Assembly (NCBI RefSeq): GCF_006345805.1
Contig: NC_043004.1
Location: 61,938,001 to 62,002,000, forward strand
Length of the DNA stretch: 64,000 bases
DNA from: Octopus sinensis
Lineage: Eukaryota
Direction of reading: 5' to 3'
Below, in pieces: positions 11,876 through 43,759 of this stretch. A program made the translations under genes and the position numbers. The notes beneath the pieces are model-generated. The model saw nothing but the letters and a program-made list of their open reading frames with translations. It searched no databases and had not been told where the DNA came from. The stretch's first letter is position 1. Each line of letters starts with the position of its first letter.

Positions 11876-11982
11876 ATATATATATATTAAAATATTATTA
11901 GAGACAAAACCACTATTTTGCAAAACAAACAAGGAAAGACTTAATCAATACATAAAATTTTAATAAATAGTCAAAAAAACCG

Positions 11983-12024
11983 CCACTACAATCGTTTCTT
12001 GTCTGATCGACAATCTTCAGGTGG
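11983..12024 (-). ncRNA. Minimal type I hammerhead ribozyme
   Basis: CCAC-CTGAAGA-TTGTC-GATCA-GACAA-GAAAC-GATT-GTA^GTGG. Stem I CCAC/GTGG, stem II TTGTC/GACAA, intact core. Confidence 0.85.
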
Positions 12025-12054
12025 ACTTCCAATAATCAGTGTCAAATTTGAAGT

Positions 12055-12097
12055 CCACCTGAAGATTGTCGATCAACACAAGAAACGATTGTAGTGG
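12055..12097 (+). ncRNA. Minimal type I hammerhead ribozyme (one stem II mismatch)
   Basis: CCAC-CTGAAGA-TTGTC-GATCAA-CACAA-GAAAC-GATT-GTA^GTGG. Confidence 0.8.
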
Positions 12098-12301
12098 CGG
12101 TTTTTTGACTATTTATTAAAATTTTATGTATTGATTAAGTCTTTCCTTGTTTGTTTTGCCAAAATAGTGGTTTTGTCTCTAATAATATTTTATAATATTT
12201 TACTATAAAATCGATTTAATCCTAAATCTGATTTTTTCCCTGTAAATTTGGATTTATTCCCTAATATTTATTATTTATATATATATATATTATATATATA
12301 T

Positions 12302-12381
<80 letters not shown>

Positions 12382-12409
12382 ATATACATACATACTGCAT
12401 ACACACACG

Positions 12410-12543
12410 TGTGTGACTTGCCTACTTCTGCTCTGACTGTGTGATTATTTTCCGAGTACTTTCATGTTGATCGATCCAAGATTATAATAGAAGTCACTAG
12501 TCCAAGATACTGCGCAGTGGGTTTTGACCCGGAACTATGTGGC
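12410..12543 (-). mobile_element. Degenerate SINE family A fragment abutting the 5' end of the LINE
   Basis: TAGAAGTCACTAGTCCAAGATACTGCGCAGTGGGTTTTGACCCGGAACTATGTGG matches the SINE A body. Confidence 0.6.
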
Positions 12544-15135
12544 TGAGAAGATGTGACAGAGGAAAAAGGCGAGGTGGAGGTGTTGCTGTGTATGTTAAGT
12601 CTGAGCACAAGCCGTCCAGCGGTATTCTACCCACAAATGCTCAACCTACAACAAAATTCGATGCCGTCTATTGCAAGCTGAGCCTATCTGAGTTTTGCCT
12701 GCCCTGTTGGCTGTCTACAGGCCGCCTCTTGCCGACCCCCAGGACGATGCTCATTTAAGATGAGCGATAAGATTCGTTTCAGCTTCGCATGACTGTTTGG
12801 TACTAGGAGACTTCAACGCTCCCACGATCGATTGGCCCGCATCAATTTGTACAACATCTTCCCGGTTCGGCCAGGCCCTTCTCGACGTCGCTGAAGATTG
12901 TTTTCTATCGCAACATGTTGAATATCCGACAAGGCGTCGGTCTGGGCAGCAGCCATCTATGCTAGATCTGGTAGTCTCCCGCTATCCAACATCAGTGTCA
13001 GACGTATCTGTGTGCGCCCCTCTTGCCAAGAGTGATCATGCGGTCCTGAAGTTCGTCATGCACACATCTTTTTCTACGCCCACGATTACTTCGCTGCCAC
13101 GTAGAGTCTTCTCTGCAATTAATCTTGAAATTCTAACCGAGGCTTCCGCGCTTCTGGACTAGCGATCCCTGATGACGTTGTCCTCAGTTGACGAACTATG
13201 GTCATCCCTCAAAGCATATGTAATCTGTTTGACTGACCAGGCAGTTCCCGTTGGGCTTCCCAAGAGGAAGAAACACAAGCCCTGGGTGACGAAGAAGGTT
13301 AAACGAGAACGTCGACTCAGAGATATTGCTTGGGCTGAATTCAAAAATCTGGATTCGACTGCAGCTTTTGAGGTGTACAAAACTCAACGAGACCGAGCCG
13401 TGAAAATTGAAAAGAAAGAACGCTTCAGTTATGAATACAAAATCGCGGCTAATGCCAGTAGCAATCCAAAAGCCTTCTTTGCCCATGTCCAGCGGAATTC
13501 CCGCTTGAACAACCAGATTGCAACGCTGGTAGACTCAACAGGCGTATCGATTGAGGACCCTTATCAACAGAGTCAATTATTTGCCGAGGCTTTTTCAACT
13601 ATTTTCAAACAAGATGATGGTCGTGAACCCCCTCCATTTGATAGATCGGTACCTCCAATGCTTCGATTGGTCATCACGCGGGACGAAGTCAAACGTGTTA
13701 TTCAAGGCATCGATGTCAACAAGGGTCACGGCCCTGACGGCATACACCCACGGGTTATCAAAGCGTTGGCTCCAGTCATCTGCGAGCCCTTAACACGACT
13801 ATTCAATATGTCATTGGCGACGGGTGTTGTACCTGCAGACTGGAGAACAGCGATAATCTGCCCAATTTTCAAGAAAAGGAGCCGCGAAGACCCGCTTAAC
13901 TACCGACCGGTTTCCCGTACATCAATAATCAGCAAGATGTTCGAAACCATCCTTAAGAAAAGTATGATGCTCCACCTCCTAAACACAGCCTCGATCACTG
14001 ATTCCCAACACGGCTTCGTGCCGAAGAGATCATGCTTGTCCAACTTACTAGTAATGGAAGAATTGGTGACGCGCATCCTCGATGATAGTGATGCTGTTGA
14101 CATCGTTTTATTGGACTTTGCCAAAGCTTTTGACTCGGTAAACCACCGCCTACTACTTGTCAAGCTTCAAGCATATAGTTTCCATCCGGATATTGTACGA
14201 TGGGTTGGTGCCTTCCTCTCAGATCGCTCCTTCCAAGTCCAAGTTAATGGCTCGCGGTCCGACGTCTCCAGCGCGAGCAGTGGCGTGCCTCAAGGTTCAG
14301 TGCTTGGGCCCTTGTTGTTCTTAGTCTTCATAAATGACTTGCCCGACGACCTCACGCAACACACCCTTCTATTTGCCGACGATATCAAACTGGTCGCTCC
14401 TCGCGATAGTATAGAGGATCTTCGTCGATGCCTCCACCAAATTTGGAAGTGGTCTAACGATTGGGACCTGTGTCTGAACGTGTCAAAGTGCTGTCATCTG
14501 CCTGTCGGCTCTACTCCTGCAACTTGATTTCGAGCCGGGTCGTCTGCTGCTGGAGAGGACCGATCAGGTAAAGGACCTGGGTATCTTGGTGGATTCCTCC
14601 TTTTCGCCTTCGGCCCAGTGCGTCCATGCTGCCAACAAAGCACGCGGAATTCTGTTTTTGATTCGACGGTCATTCGGAATGCTCACAGCAGCCATATTCC
14701 TACCACTCTATGTCACGCTGGTGAGACCCATATTGGAGTACGGGATTCAAGCCTCTTCTCCTTATCTCCTCAAAGACATACAGCATGGTTCATGGTCTAA
14801 AAAATTTGTCCTACGAAGAAAGGCTGAGGACGCTCGACCTTTATTCTCTTGAAAAACGCCGCCGCCGTGGTGATCTCATTCTCGCCCACAACATCATAAG
14901 CGGGAAGTGTAACCTCTCGAAGGAGCTGTTCTTCACTCCTGCTCCAGAGCGTCGGCTGCGGGGTCATTCCGAAAAGCTCTACCTGCGACGATTTCATCTA
15001 AATCGAAGGAGAGGAGCTTTCTCCGTCCGGGTTGCAGATCCGTGGAACAAGCTGCCAGACGAGATGGTGAAGATGCCGACGACCGCTTTGTTCAAAGCCT
15101 CCCTGGACCTCATGTGGCCTGAACTCTTTACATGA
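12544..15135 (+). pseudogene. LINE ORF2 pseudogene split over ORFs 12537, 12797, 13172, 14586 and 14785
   Basis: Frame breaks near 12700-12780, a TAG at ~13160, a frameshift at ~14520 and an apparent short deletion at ~14785. The 451-aa RT core remains open. Confidence 0.9.
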
Positions 15136-15216
15136 ACACCACCCTGTACTTAACTCCATGTCCCCCTACATGGCCTTGCTATTTGCTTTTGAGCCAAATT
15201 AACTAACTAACTAACT

Positions 15217-21216: not shown

Positions 21217-22494
21217 AATATGTGTGGTGTGGTGCCTCTGTTGGGTGTGTGTCTGTGTGTGTCTCTGTGTGTGTCTCTGTATTTGTGTCTGTGTGTGCTC
21301 TGCTGACGAGAAAGACCCACTAGGCATGTCCATAAATTGATCAATTCAGAGTTATTTTATTGTTATCAAGTTTCCCATAGACTTGCTCCCCGATTTCAAA
21401 ACGTTACTAATTTTGTGATGATTTTTAAAGTGTTTGGTCAATCTGACGTCTGTTTTCAGTATATAGGCTAGACTTTTTCTATGCTCTTAATTATATATAT
21501 ATATAAAACCAAAAAATAAGAATAAAGCATCCAGGTGTGTACCATATTATGGCTAGTCTCATCGATTTGTAAGGAGTACATTAAAGTCACTTAAGGTAAG
21601 CAATGCCACTGGCAATTTCATCCGGTGGGCAAACACTAAATACTGTTCTGCAGATTATAAGTATTTTACTGAGTGTATATCCAGCATAATTACCATAAAT
21701 ACGGAGATTGTTACATCTGCCTATTTTTTTCTACAGACATTTATACAACATAATTTGTATTAATTTGTTCGACGCATGGTTCTGCTGCATGCAGAACTAG
21801 CAAGTTCATTTGCATTAATTTACCTTCACCTGGTTAATATTCTATATAATCTTATTCAAGAACCGTCTAAACTAGCTATATACAACGTATATATAATCTT
21901 AGCTAGATTAAATGAAAAGAATGTGAGAGGAAGATTTAGAAATTTGTTACGGCTACAAAACCGCTATGAGGTTAAACTAATACTGACCTTAGGTCTGAGG
22001 TTAGAAATGAGAATACTAGATCTATAATTGGATTAAAGTATTTCTTAAAAATAGACCCACTAGCTATATGTGGACTATCAATCTTACGATATTTTGTACA
22101 ATTATTGGCTACTAAATTAGATATAATCAATATATTCAGGTATGGATGATATATTTGTGAACGCAGTTCGAGTTATTTTCTTTGGATAAATCAAGTTGAC
22201 TATTAGATGCAGTTTTGTTAGATATATGAGTTATACGAGCTTTTTAAAATGTGCATAGACTGATGATCAGTTGAAAGTAAATGGATCCCAATGCAAGTGT
22301 GTGATCTCTATGCAGCGGAATCTTCCATCGCATAAGTTTAAACTAAATATGATGTAAATGACTATAGATAAAGTAAAACAAATATATAGATGTACTACAC
22401 ACCGTAATAATTGCTACGATATATATATATATATATATATATAAACATACACACACAATCGCATATAATATATATGCACAGATACATACATATA

Positions 22495-22539
<45 letters not shown>

Positions 22540-22542
<3 letters not shown>

Positions 22543-22670
22543 TATTTTATAGAAGGAGCTTCTACAGGACTAGAACTGTTTCATTCAAAAGAAATCATCA
22601 GGAAGCTCTGATGATTTCTTTTGAATGAAACAGTTCTTTAGTCTGTAGAAGCTCCTATATAAAATAAAAT
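22540..22670. mobile_element. Tiny fold-back cassette in (TA)n consisting almost entirely of two overlapping opposed hammerheads
   Basis: Arms 22540-22601 and 22608-22670 are reverse complements. Confidence 0.85.
22556..22608 (-). ncRNA. Type I hammerhead ribozyme with all three stems
   Basis: GAGCTTC-CTGATGA-TTTC-TTTT-GAAT-GAA-ACAG-TTCTAGTC-CTGT-A^GAAGCTC. Stem I is 7 bp, stem III 4 bp, cleavage triplet GUA. Confidence 0.88.
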
Positions 22671-22687
22671 ATATTATATATATATAT

Positions 22688-22767
<80 letters not shown>

Positions 22768-23060
22768 GTATGTATGTGTATATAAATATATATTACTCAA
22801 CTCGTATTGTTACGAATGACCCTGAATGCACAGAAGAGGTTCCAATCTAGATTACAGTAGGAAGTCGCCTGACAGGCGAACACCCGGCCTAAGATTGCTT
22901 TTATGGAAGACCACCAGTCGCCAATATATACCAGCCTCTCCTCTTCACTCCACCTTTGTTATCCAAGGAAAAGTTAAATGATGATACAGATTGGCACCTG
23001 TGACGTCGCAACTCATTTGAATCGGACTCATACATAACCATATATATATATATATATATA

Positions 23061-26458: not shown

Positions 26459-26498
26459 ATAGTTCAGGAGTAAGTTTTCCTAGAATAAACTAAACACA

Positions 26499-26583
26499 TC
26501 ATCTATGGCCATTTCGGGGGCACATCACCATAGTTAGATTGCAATTGATGCATGTCATGGTAATGGCCCACTCGTCAGGATGA
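26499..26583 (-). ncRNA. Type I hammerhead ribozyme with extended stem II
   Basis: TCATC-CTGACGA-GTGGGC-CATTACCAT-(25 nt)-ATGGTGATG-TGCCCCC-GAA-ATGGCCAT-A^GATGA. Stem I TCATC/GATGA; stem III region is the palindrome ATGGCCAT. Confidence 0.85.
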
Positions 26584-26806
26584 ATAAAGAGATAGGATTC
26601 AAACACCAGACCAGGAAAAACCTTATCATACCGAAAGCCTAGTTTAATACTTAAAAAAACAAAGACTTTTTTTTCATTTTCAATTACATTGCTCAAAGGT
26701 CATTGACTATTTTTAATAAAGATAAAAACGCCGGTTTCAAACCCAGAATTAATTTAGGTGTGCCTCATGATAAATTTTATCCTGGTCTTGTATCCTATCT
26801 CTCTAT

Positions 26807-26892
26807 TCATCATGACGAGGGGGTCATTACCGTGATATGTATTAATTGCAATCTAACTATGGTCATGTGCTCCCGAAATGGCCATACGTGAA
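26807..26892 (+). ncRNA. Hammerhead copy with core mutation (C3>A)
   Basis: TCATC-ATGACGA-GGGGGTCATTACCGT...ATGGTCATGTGCTCCC-GAAATGGCCATA. Confidence 0.6.
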
Positions 26893-27629
26893 GTGTTTAG
26901 TTTTAGTTTATTCTGGGGAACCTTACTCATGAACTATTAAATTCTGTGTGGACGTATTTTTGATTCGACATATCTTACTCATGGATTATTACCTTTTGGT
27001 GAGTGTGATGTAAGCATAACTTTTTAGTGGCTTTATTCTTTATTTGTTTACCCGCTTTCTCAACTTGTTCAGTATGACAGAGTTTTTGTTTATTAGGTAT
27101 CTTATAAAACTTTAGTCGTTCTTTGATGGGACCTTCCTATACGTGTCTTTTCATAAGTATATGCTTTTACCTTTCGTGGTTTTCTGTATTTGTATGTCTT
27201 ATATATTTTATGTTCTAATTTATATATTATGAAAGCCATGGTAATGTTTATTTATATACGATGTGTGTAGGAGTTTTGATACAGTATATAAAGTCGTTAA
27301 CTCATTTTAATGTTTGTCCCATGACCAGTGTTTAATTACTCTTGTCGCATTTATTTGATCCCTTCGTAGTCCTATTGACTCTTTGTCTCTTTTGAAAGAA
27401 ACAATAGTTATTTCTTATATATATGCATATGCATATATACATATATACATATATAAATATATATATATATATACACATATATATATATGCATTTATATAT
27501 ATATTTATACATATATATATGCATATATATATGTGTGTATATAATTCATATACGTATGTATATACATAAATATATAACTATGTATATATATGCATTTATA
27601 TGTATGTATATATATATATATATGCATGA

Positions 27630-35085: not shown

Positions 35086-35330
35086 AGTGGTAATTATAGA
35101 GAAGGTAGATATATAGACAAAGATGTGGATTTAAATTTTAGCAACATTTGAGGTAGTGGAGCTTATCAAATAACTGACTGAAATTCAGTCGCTCCAAAAT
35201 ACTGTAAGGTTCTGAGAGGAAGCAACTGAATTTTAGTCAATCAGTTGATAAGTTCCATGACCTCAAACGTTCCTAAAATTTAAACCCACATCTTTGTCTA
35301 TATATCTACCTTCTCTATAATGTTACCACT
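35086..35330. repeat. Inverted repeat (~110-bp arms, ~25-bp spacer); MITE or fold-back cassette
   Basis: AGTGGTAATTATAGAGAAGGTAGATATATAGACAAAGATGTGG... versus ...CCACATCTTTGTCTATATATCTACCTTCTCTATAATGTTACCACT. Confidence 0.88.
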
Positions 35331-39390: not shown

Positions 39391-40460
39391 ATCACAAAAC
39401 CTTGCAAAGCTAAGTATATATTTATATTTAAGATTTTAAAATTTTAAATTTAAATATTTTAATAAGTCTTATTGTATAATTGTTATGTAGTGATTTAGTT
39501 ATCGTAGTTTTTCATATAATTATTAGATTTTAACTCTACGTTTATTCGTAGCCAAAGAGATATATAGATCATTAATAGTAATACGATTTTTTTTTAAAGT
39601 TAGGTTTCATGTATATACATGTATTGATAGCATAAATTTTAGTCTTTAATAACTATATTTTTTGATAGTTATTTTAAATATTTTATAATTTGTTATTATA
39701 ACTTATTGCTTTTTTCAATTGATAACGTGTAGTAGGATTTTTTTCATTGATAAATATATTCGTAGTATTTATTTGATACTTTATAACTACGGATTGATTA
39801 TTTCATTAAGTATTTTATTATTTCATTTTAGTTCTTAACTATATGGTTATTAATTAGCCAACAAGATATATGGATCGTTAATTAGTTATAGCGTTCTTTT
39901 AAGATAGTTTGTTTCTTTGTTTACAATTTGCTTTTTTCATCTTTAATCTTTTAATATATATATAAGTAATAATGAATAATTCATTTATTAGGTTTTTATT
40001 ATACGTGCATATATATTTATTGATAGAGATAATTTTAGATCTTAATTTTTATATTATATACATTTATATATATTCATTGATAATTTAGTTATTATTCAAA
40101 TATTATATAATTATTTGACTTGAAATTAAATTTAATAATATCAATAGTGATTTTTTGGATTTTATTTTTAATATTTAGGTAATTAGATATTGACTATAAC
40201 TGAGATTAGATTGTTTGTGCGTTTATTATGTTTTTTAAAGCCACATTATATATGAATAGACAAATACATTTTCTATCTATTCTTACATTAAAAATTAATA
40301 CTTAAAAATTAATATTTAACATTATAATCGATTGTATGACATAATCATAATCGTTAAAGTTTCAAGTTTGATAATAGAGTTTTTTATAAGAAAAATTATT
40401 TTATTTATTTTTTAAAAAGTATTGTTTAAATATATTTGATTATCTTTTAAATATTATCAT

Positions 40461-40557
40461 TAACCTGAAGATTGACTATAACCATAATTCGAATTATTAA
40501 TTGAATTTAAATTATTGTTATTCGAATTAGGTTATGGGCATGAAACAATCGTAGTGG
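40461..40557 (+). ncRNA. Hammerhead motif with long extended stem II (copy 1)
   Basis: CTGAAGA-TTGACTATAACC-A-TAATTCGAAT-(25 nt)-ATTCGAATTA-GGTTATGGGCAT-GAAAC-AATC-GTA^GTGG. Confidence 0.75.
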
Positions 40558-41753
40558 TTTTACTTTTTATCTTATATTAAACTTTTTAATACTTTTTGAT
40601 AGTTATATATGTTTAAAAAAGATTAAATATATATATGATTAAATAAATAAAAAATAAAAATAAAAATAAAAAAATATATATAGATAGATATATATATATA
40701 AATTGATAAGTATAAATTAATACTTTAAAATTTTTAAAATTTAAATATTTTAATAAGTCTTATTGTATAATTGTTATGTAGTGATTTAGTTATCGTAGTT
40801 TTTCATATAATTATTAGATTTTAACTCTACGTTTATTCGTAGCCAAAGAGATATATAGATCATTAATAGTAATACGATTTTTTTTTAAAGTTAGGTTTCA
40901 TGTATATACATGTATTGATAGCATAAATTTTAGTCTTTAATAACTATATTTTTTGATAGTTATTTTAAATATTTTATAATTTGTTATTATAACTTATTGC
41001 TTTTTTCAATTGATAACGTGTAGTAGGATTTTTTTCATTGATAAATATATTCGTAGTATTTATTTGATACTTTATAACTACGGATTGATTATTTCATTAA
41101 GTATTTTATTATTTCATTTTAGTTCTTAACTATATGGTTATTAATTAGCCAACAAGATATATGGATCGTTAATTAGTTATAGCGTTCTTTTAAGATAGTT
41201 TGTTTCTTTGTTTACAATTTGCTTTTTTCATCTTTAATCTTTTAATATATATATAAGTAATAATGAATAATTCATTTATTAGGTTTTTATTATACGTGCA
41301 TATATATTTATTGATAGAGATAATTTTAGATCTTAATTTTTATATTATATACATTTATATATATTCATTGATAATTTAGTTATTATTCAAATATTATATA
41401 ATTATTTGACTTGAAATTAAATTTAATAATATCAATAGTGATTTTTTGGGATTTTATTTTTAATATTTAGGTAATTAGATATTGACTATAACTGAGATTA
41501 GATTGTTTGTGCGTTTATTATGTTTTTTAAAGCCACATTATATATGAATAGACAAATACATTTTCTATCTATTCTTACATTAAAAATTAATACTTAAAAA
41601 TTAATATTTAACATTATAATCGATTGTATGACATAATCATAATCGTTAAAGTTTCAAGTTTGATAATAGAGTTTTTTATAAGAAAAATTATTTTATTTAT
41701 TTTTTAAAAAGTATTGTTTAAATATATTTGATTATCTTTTTAAATATTATCAT

Positions 41754-41850
41754 TAACCTGAAGATTGACTATAACCATAATTCGAATTATTAATTGAATT
41801 TAAATTATTGTTATTCGAATTAGGTTATGGGCATGAAACAATCGTAGTGG
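41754..41850 (+). ncRNA. Hammerhead motif with long extended stem II (copy 2)
   Basis: Identical to 40461-40557. Confidence 0.75.
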
Positions 41851-42212
41851 TTTTACTTTTTATCTTATATTAAACTTTTTAATACTTTTTGATAGTTATA
41901 TATGTTTAAAAAAGATTAAATATATATATGATTAAATAAATAAAAAATAAAATAAAAATAAAAAAATATATATAGATAGATATATATATATAAATTGATA
42001 AGTATAAATTAATACTTTAAAATTTTTAAAATTTTTACATTTTATATATTTTGTATATTATATTAATTAATTTCATTTCTATGTTTTGCTTTATGTTTCT
42101 CACTGTTTGGTTTGCTTAATAGTGGTTTTATCTCTAATTTAATATATATCTATACTGCAAAATTAGATTTAATCCTAAATCTAATTTTTGGATTACTCCC
42201 TAATATTATTAT

Positions 42213-42270
<58 letters not shown>

Positions 42271-43194
42271 ATATGTATGTATGTATGTATATGTATATAT
42301 GTATATATTAAGAGAAATAGAAACCTGATGATCTTATAAATGATACTAACTCCACATATACCTGTCGATTTGTAAATCGATATGCGAAGGTGTAATTATT
42401 GTTTAACTGTAAACTATTATTTAGAGAGGAAGTTTAACTATATTATTTGATAATGGTGATGTACACATAAGTTAAATTATTACAGTTCAAATAATGAGAG
42501 GGAATATAGGGAAATATAGCGAAAGAAAGAAAAACAGACAGTAAGAAAGAAAACCAGAACGATATTTTAAAGATCTAGATTTAGAGAATCTTGGTGTATA
42601 CTCCGGATGAATACTCTGTTTGTGTGAGAGAGCAATATTCTAATCATGTAAAACAATCATATTGACATTCAAATATATTCATGATCTCAGTGAGTTTCTC
42701 TGGATTACCTTTTTTCAGCTAGGAAAATTTTAGATGAATACTTCATTTTACATAATTCCAATATTTTTCAACAATTCTCTAGTTGATGCAGCTTCTCATA
42801 AATTTTATATTTAGATCCAGATCTAATTTTCAAGCTACATTTTCTTTCTGAACGTTTCTGATAGATGGATTGTGATTCTTTTGCTTTTATCAGATTTCCT
42901 CTGAAAGCATTACTAGGGTCGAAACAACTTTCAGCTGCATAGATTTGAATTTTGCCTTATAAATACTGTTGTCTCTATTACAGTTGCAACCCAACGGGCA
43001 CTTATCCTAAAAGGATATGATACGCTCCACTAAAAGGAAATGATACGCTATACTTTTGAACTATGCCTTATACATACATACGCACATACACGCGTACACA
43101 CACGCGCACAACACACGGTCCCCTAGCCCCTACCCGTATATAAACATACGTGCTTATATATATATATATAATTTGACACTGAATTATTGGAAGT

Positions 43195-43237
43195 CCACCT
43201 GAAGATTGTCGATCAAGACAAGAAACGATTGTAGTGG
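43195..43237 (+). ncRNA. Minimal type I hammerhead in a 160-bp cassette (43170-43332) within (TA)n
   Basis: CCAC-CTGAAGA-TTGTC-GATCAA-GACAA-GAAAC-GATT-GTA^GTGG. Confidence 0.87.
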
Positions 43238-43759
43238 CGGTTTTTTTGACTATTTATTAAAATTTATGTATTAATTAAGTCTTTCCTTGTTTGTTTTGCA
43301 AAATAGTGGTTTTGTCTCGAATAATATTTTATATATATATATTATATATATATATATTATATATATATATACATTATGTGTATATATGTATAAGTGTTTA
43401 TATAAGGTATAAGTTTAGAGATGTAAACTTTAGGAGTATCCAGAGGCACTCCTGGTAAATACCTCCGTACGTATGGTCCTTGGTATAAGATATACGGACG
43501 CAGATAATTTAAAAGGGTAAACCGTAGTATAATGTGTATATAGACGATCAGAAAATAGAGGAAAACAACAAATAGAAGTTAGTTTTGGTGCTAAAAAGCC
43601 ATTATTTAATTAGTTAAGCAAGGGGAAGCTGAGAGTGAGTTACTGTGCACCATATTGGGGTAAATAAGTATTTACCGCGTTGCAAATGGTAGACGTAATC
43701 AGTACTAAGAAGGCAGAGATAGACAAAGAGGAGGATAGAGCGAAAGATAGAGACAGAAT

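What the first reader, a model, noticed from the sequence alone, without database searches (positions are those of the whole stretch)
22540..22670. A ~130-bp element that is little more than two overlapping opposed hammerheads
Seen: the minus-strand copy is the best-formed ribozyme in the window (7-bp stem I GAGCTTC/GAAGCTC, 4-bp stem III with an 8-nt loop, GUA site). It is mirrored by a plus-strand core starting at 22608 that lacks a full 5' stem I strand. The whole unit sits in pure (TA)n. Inference: it could cleave as a monomer, unlike minimal PLE hammerheads that need dimerisation. This makes it the best experimental candidate and possibly a minimal mobile ribozyme.
Basis: partly seen in the sequence, partly recalled or inferred. 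Interest (0 to 1): 0.75.

Follow-up and report, generated by a model that had tools for sequence, protein, structure and literature searches.

The report
Mirror-image stub of Penelope retroelement
This 130-base palindrome is two copies of the front end of a Penelope-type jumping gene joined head to head in a TA repeat, one of hundreds in this genome; it is likely a dead by-product of the parent's copying, and its RNA is predicted to fold into one long hairpin rather than act as a self-cutting, self-moving ribozyme.

Summary
The two opposed hammerhead motifs are real, but the unit is not a free-standing ribozyme. Its minus arm matches, base for base over 66 nt, the pseudo-LTR of a full-length Hydra-clade Penelope-like element (RT + GIY-YIG) in the same genome. 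At least 695 such head-to-head palindromes exist. Most have one long and one short arm (37 of 41 classifiable); this copy is a rare short+short one. Both arms stop at one position, 29 nt behind a conserved TATA box: likely run-off cDNAs from the RNA's 5' end, primed on both strands of a nicked (TA)n target. The whole unit folds as a -80 kcal/mol hairpin and lacks the promoter. The seventh stem-I pair is made by the junction; without it a downstream hairpin is predicted to block the fold. The U-U pair is a Hydra-clade trait, not a defect. No junction peak at the cut site. The layout is published, and this scan noted it before in other genomes. Extra: a sister family in the window has spliced palindromes, pointing to a sense RNA template.

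The parts
22419..22542 (.). left (TA)n target microsatellite
   Evidence: TRF period 2, 78% matches
22542..22607 (-). arm A: +1 to +66 of the pseudo-LTR / 5' UTR of a Hydra-clade Penelope-like element, ending at the proximal (short) 3' end
   Evidence: identical over 66 nt to the 5' pLTR of full-length copy L095
22556..22608 (-). type I hammerhead motif: 7-bp stem I (6 native + 1 made by the junction), intact core, U10.1-U11.1, 3-bp stem II, 4-bp stem III with 8-nt loop; predicted cut between 22563 and 22562
   Evidence: sequence; fold energies
22548..22566 (-). competing 8-bp hairpin over the cut site and the 3' strand of stem I; predicted to win when stem I has only its native 6 bp
   Evidence: MFE and centroid of window:22542-22607:-
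22602..22608 (.). head-to-head junction at the family's fixed 5' end (+1 = 22607 on the minus strand)
22608..22668 (+). arm B: second short arm, starting at core position C3, with small indels in loop III and downstream; lacks the 5' strand of stem I
   Evidence: alignment to L095 pLTR
22669..22793 (.). right (TA)n target microsatellite
   Evidence: TRF period 2, 84% matches

Best explanation
The element is two copies of the first ~66 bases of a Hydra-clade Penelope-like retroelement joined head to head inside a (TA)n repeat, likely made in one insertion event when the parent's protein nicked both DNA strands, began reverse transcription at internal sites close to the RNA's 5' end and ran off that end, leaving a copy that is predicted to be inert. 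Shown: identity to the parent's pLTR; parent ORF with RT and GIY-YIG and Hydra motifs; two fixed 3' ends (about +66 and +140) shared by palindromes and full-length copies; fixed 5' end 29 nt behind a conserved TATA box; both arms of one subfamily. Inferred: +1 is the transcription start; promoter-started RNA can give only these stubs because RT starts 66-140 nt from the cap, whereas ORF-bearing copies need read-through RNA; the two cDNA ends anneal through the self-complementary 4-mer at +1 (464 loci) or through one extra base, possibly a copied cap G (231 loci and this copy); the template was uncleaved RNA; in any read-through transcript the antisense arm is made first and captures the hammerhead arm. 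The ribozyme belongs to the parent, where it is under selection and is predicted to be held off by a downstream hairpin unless protein or co-transcriptional folding helps.
For: Arm runs on into an ATG and PLE ORF in L034, L054 and most of L062-L089. ORF P0001 has RWR, DKT (in sister copies), YRDD, CxCX5C, GIY-YIG without CCHH, and CxxC/CxH, the Hydra signature of PMC8557442 section 11. 7 of 10 full-length loci show a 3' pLTR ending at the same short or long end in (TA)n. 464 + 231 exact palindrome centres, 0 in reversed controls. 37 long+short of 41 classifiable loci, P = 5e-8 against 50:50 (44 loci examined, 3 unclassified). Arms share subfamily type in 32 of 39 loci, chance 0.18; 8 of 10 arm types (53 of 56 arms) occur in promoter-bearing parents. 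In 34 promoter-bearing pLTR rows (a few loci twice) 15 of 22 columns between TATA and +1 vary, against 5 of 55 in the hammerhead, all five at N7, loop II or loop III. Whole unit: -80 kcal/mol hairpin, hammerhead pair probabilities 0. PMC11167929 (text parts 1-2 of 4): a PLE protein nicks and extends both strands, starts at two internal sites that define the tail, and uses uncleaved RNA. A sister Hydra-like family in the window shows the same layout with the intron removed.
Against: No transcription start was measured; only contigs of runs not on record as RNA were available. The AG at +1/+2 follows a pyrimidine-rich stretch and could be a splice acceptor rather than a start, although no recurrent upstream exon was seen among the junctions. 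The extra-G signal is weak: 8 of 16 informative rows counted by eye (P 0.007 against 0.2). This copy is short+short, a class seen in 1 of 44 sampled loci, so it may instead have lost a tail later. Pooled 'constrained' positions carried fewer private changes than pooled 'free' ones (15/1908 vs 84/5445, P 0.015), which at face value suggests some constraint on the copies; the difference comes from the tail (62/3111), and the core itself is not spared (8/520 vs 7/1041 in loops). Two palindromes (L202, L208) have both arms ending exactly at the cut site, a hint that some templates were cleaved. Arm concordance cannot tell one RNA copied twice from fold-back of one cDNA.
Confidence: 0.82

Rival explanations
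1. Minimal mobile ribozyme: the palindrome is itself a non-autonomous, retrozyme-like unit that is transcribed, self-cleaves and is recopied by the parent's protein.
For: Hundreds of near-identical copies with fixed ends; intact cores; animal retrozymes are reported as non-autonomous PLE derivatives (bioRxiv 10.64898/2026.07.22.740005, abstract and part 1 of 5); a tandem array of palindromes exists in the sister family (L237/L238).
Against: No promoter inside the unit (TATA lies 29 nt outside); inverted rather than tandem hammerheads; hairpin sequesters both; junction class and its orientation vary freely within each subfamily; arm types track full-length parents; core not spared from private changes.
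Confidence: 0.07
2. Same parent and same origin, but the second arm arises by fold-back of one cDNA (or self-priming on an antisense template, as proposed in PMC3846280) rather than by two primings.
For: Arms nearly always share subfamily type; the 231-copy junction can be drawn as a 5-nt hairpin loop, and the loop occurs in both orientations relative to the tail; PMC3846280 Discussion argues for self-priming.
Against: The commonest junction (464 loci) has no loop and fits two ends annealing through a palindromic 4-mer; either arm can be the long one; in vitro both strands are extended (PMC11167929); spliced arms in the sister family need a sense template.
Confidence: 0.1
3. MITE or chance: a miniature DNA transposon or foldback in which the hammerhead look is accidental.
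For: Short palindrome at TA sites; no Rfam hammerhead hit at threshold; hammerhead fold not better than shuffles.
Against: Continuous with an RT/GIY-YIG ORF; unequal arms; variation in parents confined to free positions of the hammerhead; same core with different pairing stems in two other families of this genome and in PMC8557442 File S2.
Confidence: 0.01

Closest known systems
Hydra clade of C-terminal EN+ Penelope-like elements, e.g. Hydra-1_Obim, Hydra-1_Ajap, Penelope-1_NV (PMC8557442; seen: passages, section 11, supplement passages and part 2 of 59)
   Same: RWK-like, DKT, CxCX5C, no CCHH, CxxC/CxH; (TA)n target; canonical hammerhead in the pLTR; U10.1-U11.1 in 14 of 26 listed Hydra rows; 4-bp stem III.
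   Different: A different family from Hydra-1_Obim (other hammerhead; three motif searches of the supplement found 0 hits); 8-nt loop III; pLTRs present about 4.6 kb apart with a microsatellite-rich spacer; tail about 70 nt rather than 30-40.
PLE insertion unit with inverted 5'-truncated pLTR and one-sided tail (PMC8557442 Fig. 2 legend; PMC3846280, passages and Discussion)
   Same: Head-to-head inverted pLTRs, palindromic junction, tail on one side only.
   Different: Here the unit is reduced to the pLTR's 5' UTR alone and the junction is pinned to one base in hundreds of copies.
Opposite-strand dual minimal hammerheads of Schistosoma PLEs (PMC4209133; parts 1-2 of 4 read)
   Same: Pairs of PLE hammerheads on opposite strands, ascribed to truncated PLEs.
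   Different: Those are 100-700 bp apart and lack stem III; these overlap and have a 4-bp stem III.
PAc Poseidon element of Anolis (PMC11167929; parts 1-2 of 4 read)
   Same: Two internal RT start sites defining a tail; both strands primed; AT-rich target; hammerhead near the ORF start; uncleaved RNA used.
   Different: Other clade; start sites there lie inside the ORF; its hammerhead was shown to need protein, untested here.
Non-LTR retrozymes (bioRxiv 10.64898/2026.07.22.740005, part 1 of 5; PMC7229834, search listing only)
   Same: Short, non-coding, PLE-derived, type I hammerhead.
   Different: Retrozymes are head-to-tail tandems able to release a unit RNA; this is head-to-head and cannot.

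Membership tests
Hydra-clade PLE (parent element) | Single ORF with RT and C-terminal GIY-YIG endonuclease | tested here: met
   ORF of 688 aa in L093 (frameshifted near its end) with YRDD and LVY..SYIG; rest of EN in L092; best homologue carries PF01541. Pfam scan of the ORF itself gave 0 families.
Hydra-clade PLE (parent element) | RWK motif, DKT motif, CxCX5C linker, no CCHH, CxxC and CxH around E and N | tested here: met
   IRWR, SDKT (L091, L092), CNCPDKTTC, CCDLC, NCMH read
Hydra-clade PLE (parent element) | Placement inside the Hydra clade on an RT tree | not tested
   Published reference sequences were only read by eye in the supplement; no tree built
Hydra-clade PLE (parent element) | pLTRs with hammerhead; insertion in (TA)n | tested here: met
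   7 of 10 full-length loci with 3' pLTR ending in (TA)n
Type I hammerhead ribozyme | Core C3-A9, G12-A14, A15.1-U16.1, H17 | tested here: met
   invariant in 34 parent rows
Type I hammerhead ribozyme | Three helices able to form; paired 10.1-11.1 | tested here: inconclusive
   10.1-11.1 is U-U (natural and tolerated: PMC3088659 passage). In the 63-mer stem I P 0.9, stems II and III P 0.14-0.35; in the native 6-bp form stem I is displaced; in the whole unit all P 0
Type I hammerhead ribozyme | Covariation in stems | tested here: inconclusive
   Stems are invariant within the family, so no compensatory changes; different pairing stems in two sister families seen by inspection only
Type I hammerhead ribozyme | Site-specific self-cleavage | not testable with these tools
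   No assay; genomic junctions show no peak at the cut site
Non-LTR retrozyme | Head-to-tail tandem units with a hammerhead in each | tested here: not met
   Arms are inverted; one palindrome in the window
Non-LTR retrozyme | Unit-length linear or circular RNA | not testable with these tools
   No run on record as RNA was listed
MITE / TIR DNA transposon | Equal terminal inverted repeats shared with a transposase-coding element | tested here: not met
   Unequal arms in 37 of 41; arms shared with an RT-coding element

The most novel reading that the evidence does not exclude
These palindromes are a genomic record of the Penelope reaction: each insertion uses the proximal RT start on one DNA strand and the distal start on the other, copies capped, uncleaved, promoter-started sense RNA to its first base, and joins the two cDNA ends. 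In the sister family the short copies are spliced while long ones keep the intron, so intron retention in Penelope elements would come from which transcript yields long copies, not from an antisense template; and the hammerhead whose stem I begins at the first transcribed base would be a switch held off by a hairpin that abuts the proximal RT start.
Probability: 0.5. Interest if true: 0.6.

Novelty: new member of a known kind. Interest (0 to 1): 0.33.

Why it matters
As a 'minimal mobile ribozyme' it does not stand. As one of at least 695 uniform run-off products with intact relatives of the parent in the same genome, it gives single-base predictions (transcription start, two RT starts, junction chemistry) for an open question named in PMC8557442: how Penelope-like elements form inverted structures and keep introns. 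Untested side effect: hundreds of 60-bp perfect hairpins could feed small-RNA silencing or A-to-I editing if read through (inference).

Tried and rejected
Rfam scans: no hammerhead at threshold. Pfam on the parent ORF: 0 families. Tail motif elsewhere in the window: 0 matches at 3 mismatches. Expression: no RNA holder listed; four contig sets of guessed-RNA runs cover the parent but cannot show start, strand or cleavage. Genomic footprint of self-cleavage: 36 arms start at the cut site with two non-native upstream bases; of 30 viewed, 8 are indel or deletion variants, 13 are explained by a repeated 6-mer, 9 are real junctions, 2 of them with both arms at the site; in the first 100 of 500 rows, about 46 junctions (counted by eye) spread over 17 positions, 11 within 2 nt of the site and 19 at 7-10 nt upstream: no peak. 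That the 44%-identical family (L186-L189) is the parent of the window's other hammerheads: not so. Arm-length classes from local alignment ran into the TA flanks and were dropped for those. The first fold of the parent used L094, whose variant adds a pair to the competing hairpin; repeated with the window's own arm, the hairpin still wins but narrowly (-9.4, against about -7.4 for the 6-bp hammerhead fold). Literature: 'octopus' + 'hammerhead ribozyme', 'octopus Penelope retrotransposon' (PMC13282606 passages: no hammerhead or palindrome), two intron-retention searches found no description of this family or of spliced short palindromes; Repbase, Dfam and most subscription papers were not searchable. 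Sequence look-up in earlier findings: nothing.

Full report
Observation. The sequence is as described. On the minus strand 22608-22556 reads as a type I hammerhead with a 7-bp stem I, a complete core, a 3-bp stem II opened by U-U, a 4-bp stem III with an 8-nt loop and a GUA site. The plus-strand core begins at 22608 and can form one pair of stem I. The two cores are one thing seen twice: 22545-22665 is a palindrome with a 30-bp perfect inverted repeat that folds at about -80 kcal/mol on either strand, z below -17. The flanks are TA microsatellites at 78% and 84% purity. Rfam has no hammerhead hit at threshold.

It is a large family. The 121-bp query gave 608 candidates, 40 scored, at 94-97% identity. 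Exact searches found 464 loci with a fully symmetric centre and 231 with a 5-nt asymmetric centre, with 0 hits for reversed controls. The window's junction type recurs in 8 other of 30 loci fetched. The usual unit is about 196 bp: one arm ends near +66, the other carries a further tail of about 70 nt. Among 44 loci taken in genome order, 37 were long+short, 3 long+long, 1 short+short and 3 unclassified (37 of 41, P = 5e-8). The window's copy is short+short, and the tail is absent from the window.

The parent. In L034 and L054 the long arm continues into an ATG and a reading frame; searching with that DNA gave 62 candidates, and most of the 30 loci fetched have promoter, hammerhead and tail in front of the ORF. 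The protein (P0001 and sister copies) has RWR, DKT, YRDD, a CxCX5C linker, a GIY-YIG domain without CCHH, and CxxC and CxH motifs. These are the marks of the Hydra clade of Penelope-like elements, which insert in (TA)n and carry hammerheads (PMC8557442 section 11). It is not Hydra-1_Obim, whose hammerhead differs. No tree was built. Seven of 10 full-length loci show a second pLTR about 4.6 kb downstream, ending at the same short or long point in (TA)n. The window's minus arm is identical over 66 nt to the 5' pLTR of L095.

Why the arms stop where they do. In 34 promoter-bearing pLTR rows (a few loci fetched twice) a TATA box lies 29 nt before the first base of stem I. Between them 15 of 22 columns vary among subfamilies; from +1 to +55 only 5 of 55 do, all at N7, loop II or loop III. 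The palindrome junction sits at that same +1. Inverted arms attached to ORF-bearing copies end at the same +68 or +141 but run a variable distance upstream of +1, as expected for read-through templates. I infer that +1 is the transcription start and that the palindromes are run-off cDNAs. A non-native G precedes +1 in 8 of 16 informative junction rows counted by eye (5 native, 5 overlap-type and 5 asymmetric-class rows set aside from 31), and in L038, L042, L043 and L046 both arms carry it; copying of a cap G is my recalled explanation, weakly supported. An acceptor AG at +1/+2 is not excluded. PMC11167929 (parts 1-2 of 4) shows for another PLE that both strands are nicked and extended, that reverse transcription starts at two internal sites which define the tail, and that uncleaved RNA is the template. 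That accounts for the anatomy. Both arms share a subfamily type in 32 of 39 loci (chance 0.18); N7 matched in all 100 rows listed and all 50 loci listed although the patterns allowed mixing.

Is it mobile by itself? Probably not. The promoter is outside the unit. In a read-through RNA the antisense arm comes first and captures the hammerhead arm as it emerges. Eight of 10 arm types, 53 of 56 arms, occur in promoter-bearing parents, and junction class varies freely within subfamilies, as if each copy were built anew. The catalytic bases are not spared from private changes (8/520, against 7/1041 in loops and 7/1388 in stems), although pooled constrained positions had fewer changes than pooled free ones (P 0.015), a difference driven by the tail.

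Is the ribozyme good? The U-U pair is no defect: it is in 14 of 26 Hydra rows of PMC8557442 File S2 and is reported as natural and tolerated (PMC3088659 passage). The parent keeps core and stems. But the seventh stem-I pair is made by the junction (parents have T, C or A at -1). Loop III has a self-complementary centre and a favourable dimer. Genomic junctions show no peak at the cut site, though L202 and L208 have both arms ending exactly there. Cleavage is untested; PLE hammerheads are reported as weak or protein-assisted (PMC4209133; PMC11167929).

Independent support from a neighbour. Window 11885-12265 and 43170-43330 belong to another family with the same layout, at least 2,875 arms, linked to an ORF similar to P0001. 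Long copies hold a GT-AG intron ending 10 nt before stem I (1.04 kb in L229). Of 18 opposed pairs under 80 bp apart in the first 100 rows, 17 lack the acceptor on both arms and 1 keeps it on both; 7 pairs 1.6-8 kb apart keep it on both (by eye). Spliced arms need a sense template, which speaks against the antisense self-priming proposed in PMC3846280. This is a sister family, not the finding itself.

Comparison and verdict. Inverted pLTRs with a one-sided tail and opposite-strand hammerhead pairs from truncated PLEs are published. This scan has noted such palindromes in at least three other genomes, one with the same run-off reading; those notes are not evidence, and my reading was set before I saw them. 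I found no paper on this family or on spliced short palindromes, but Repbase and Dfam were not searchable. The host looks like an octopus (inference from the 2.72-Gb size and repeats). Verdict: real motif, new family of a known clade, ordinary by-product; modest interest for what the population of copies says about the mechanism.

Noticed in passing
window 11885-12265 and 43170-43330; L220-L275: Second hammerhead-bearing Hydra-like PLE family (at least 2,875 arms). Short head-to-head copies are spliced and start at a fixed point; long copies keep a GT-AG intron of 1-1.8 kb. Bears on the intron-retention puzzle of Penelope elements.
   Followed up: partly
L186-L189: Third Hydra family, 44% protein identity to P0001, with 727-residue stop-free frames in L187 and L188 and the same pLTR layout (TATA, hammerhead with A-A at 10.1/11.1, short and long 3' ends): candidate intact elements.
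   Followed up: partly
L274:5600-9001 (-): Long stop-free frames (606 and 525 residues) that look like a host gene lie between inverted arms of the second family; possible captured, intron-less host sequence.
   Followed up: no
L054, L034, L089: Short tandem derivatives: hammerhead, tail, 190-300 bp of ORF, then a jump back to +1. Two same-strand hammerheads about 320 bp apart in L054 could release a retrozyme-like unit.
   Followed up: no
L142: One arm carries many A-to-G changes that the other lacks; could be a trace of A-to-I editing of the template or plain decay.
   Followed up: no
L237, L238: Tandem array of 476-bp units, each a complete palindrome of the second family.
   Followed up: no
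window 7049 (-), 35373 (+), 37856 (+), 10556 (-), 11155 (+): Further CUGANGA cores; 35093-35321 is a 101-bp inverted repeat nearby. Probably other PLE stubs.
   Followed up: no
window 26487-26903: 116-bp inverted arms 185 bp apart with a CUGACGA core at 26578 (-); not examined.
   Followed up: no
window 39900-42050: Very AT-rich (16.5% GC in 40001-42000) segment duplicated at about 1,290 bp spacing.
   Followed up: no
window about 12000-15200: GC-richer stretch that looks like the 3' part of a CR1/L2-type LINE (recalled motif, not tested).
   Followed up: no
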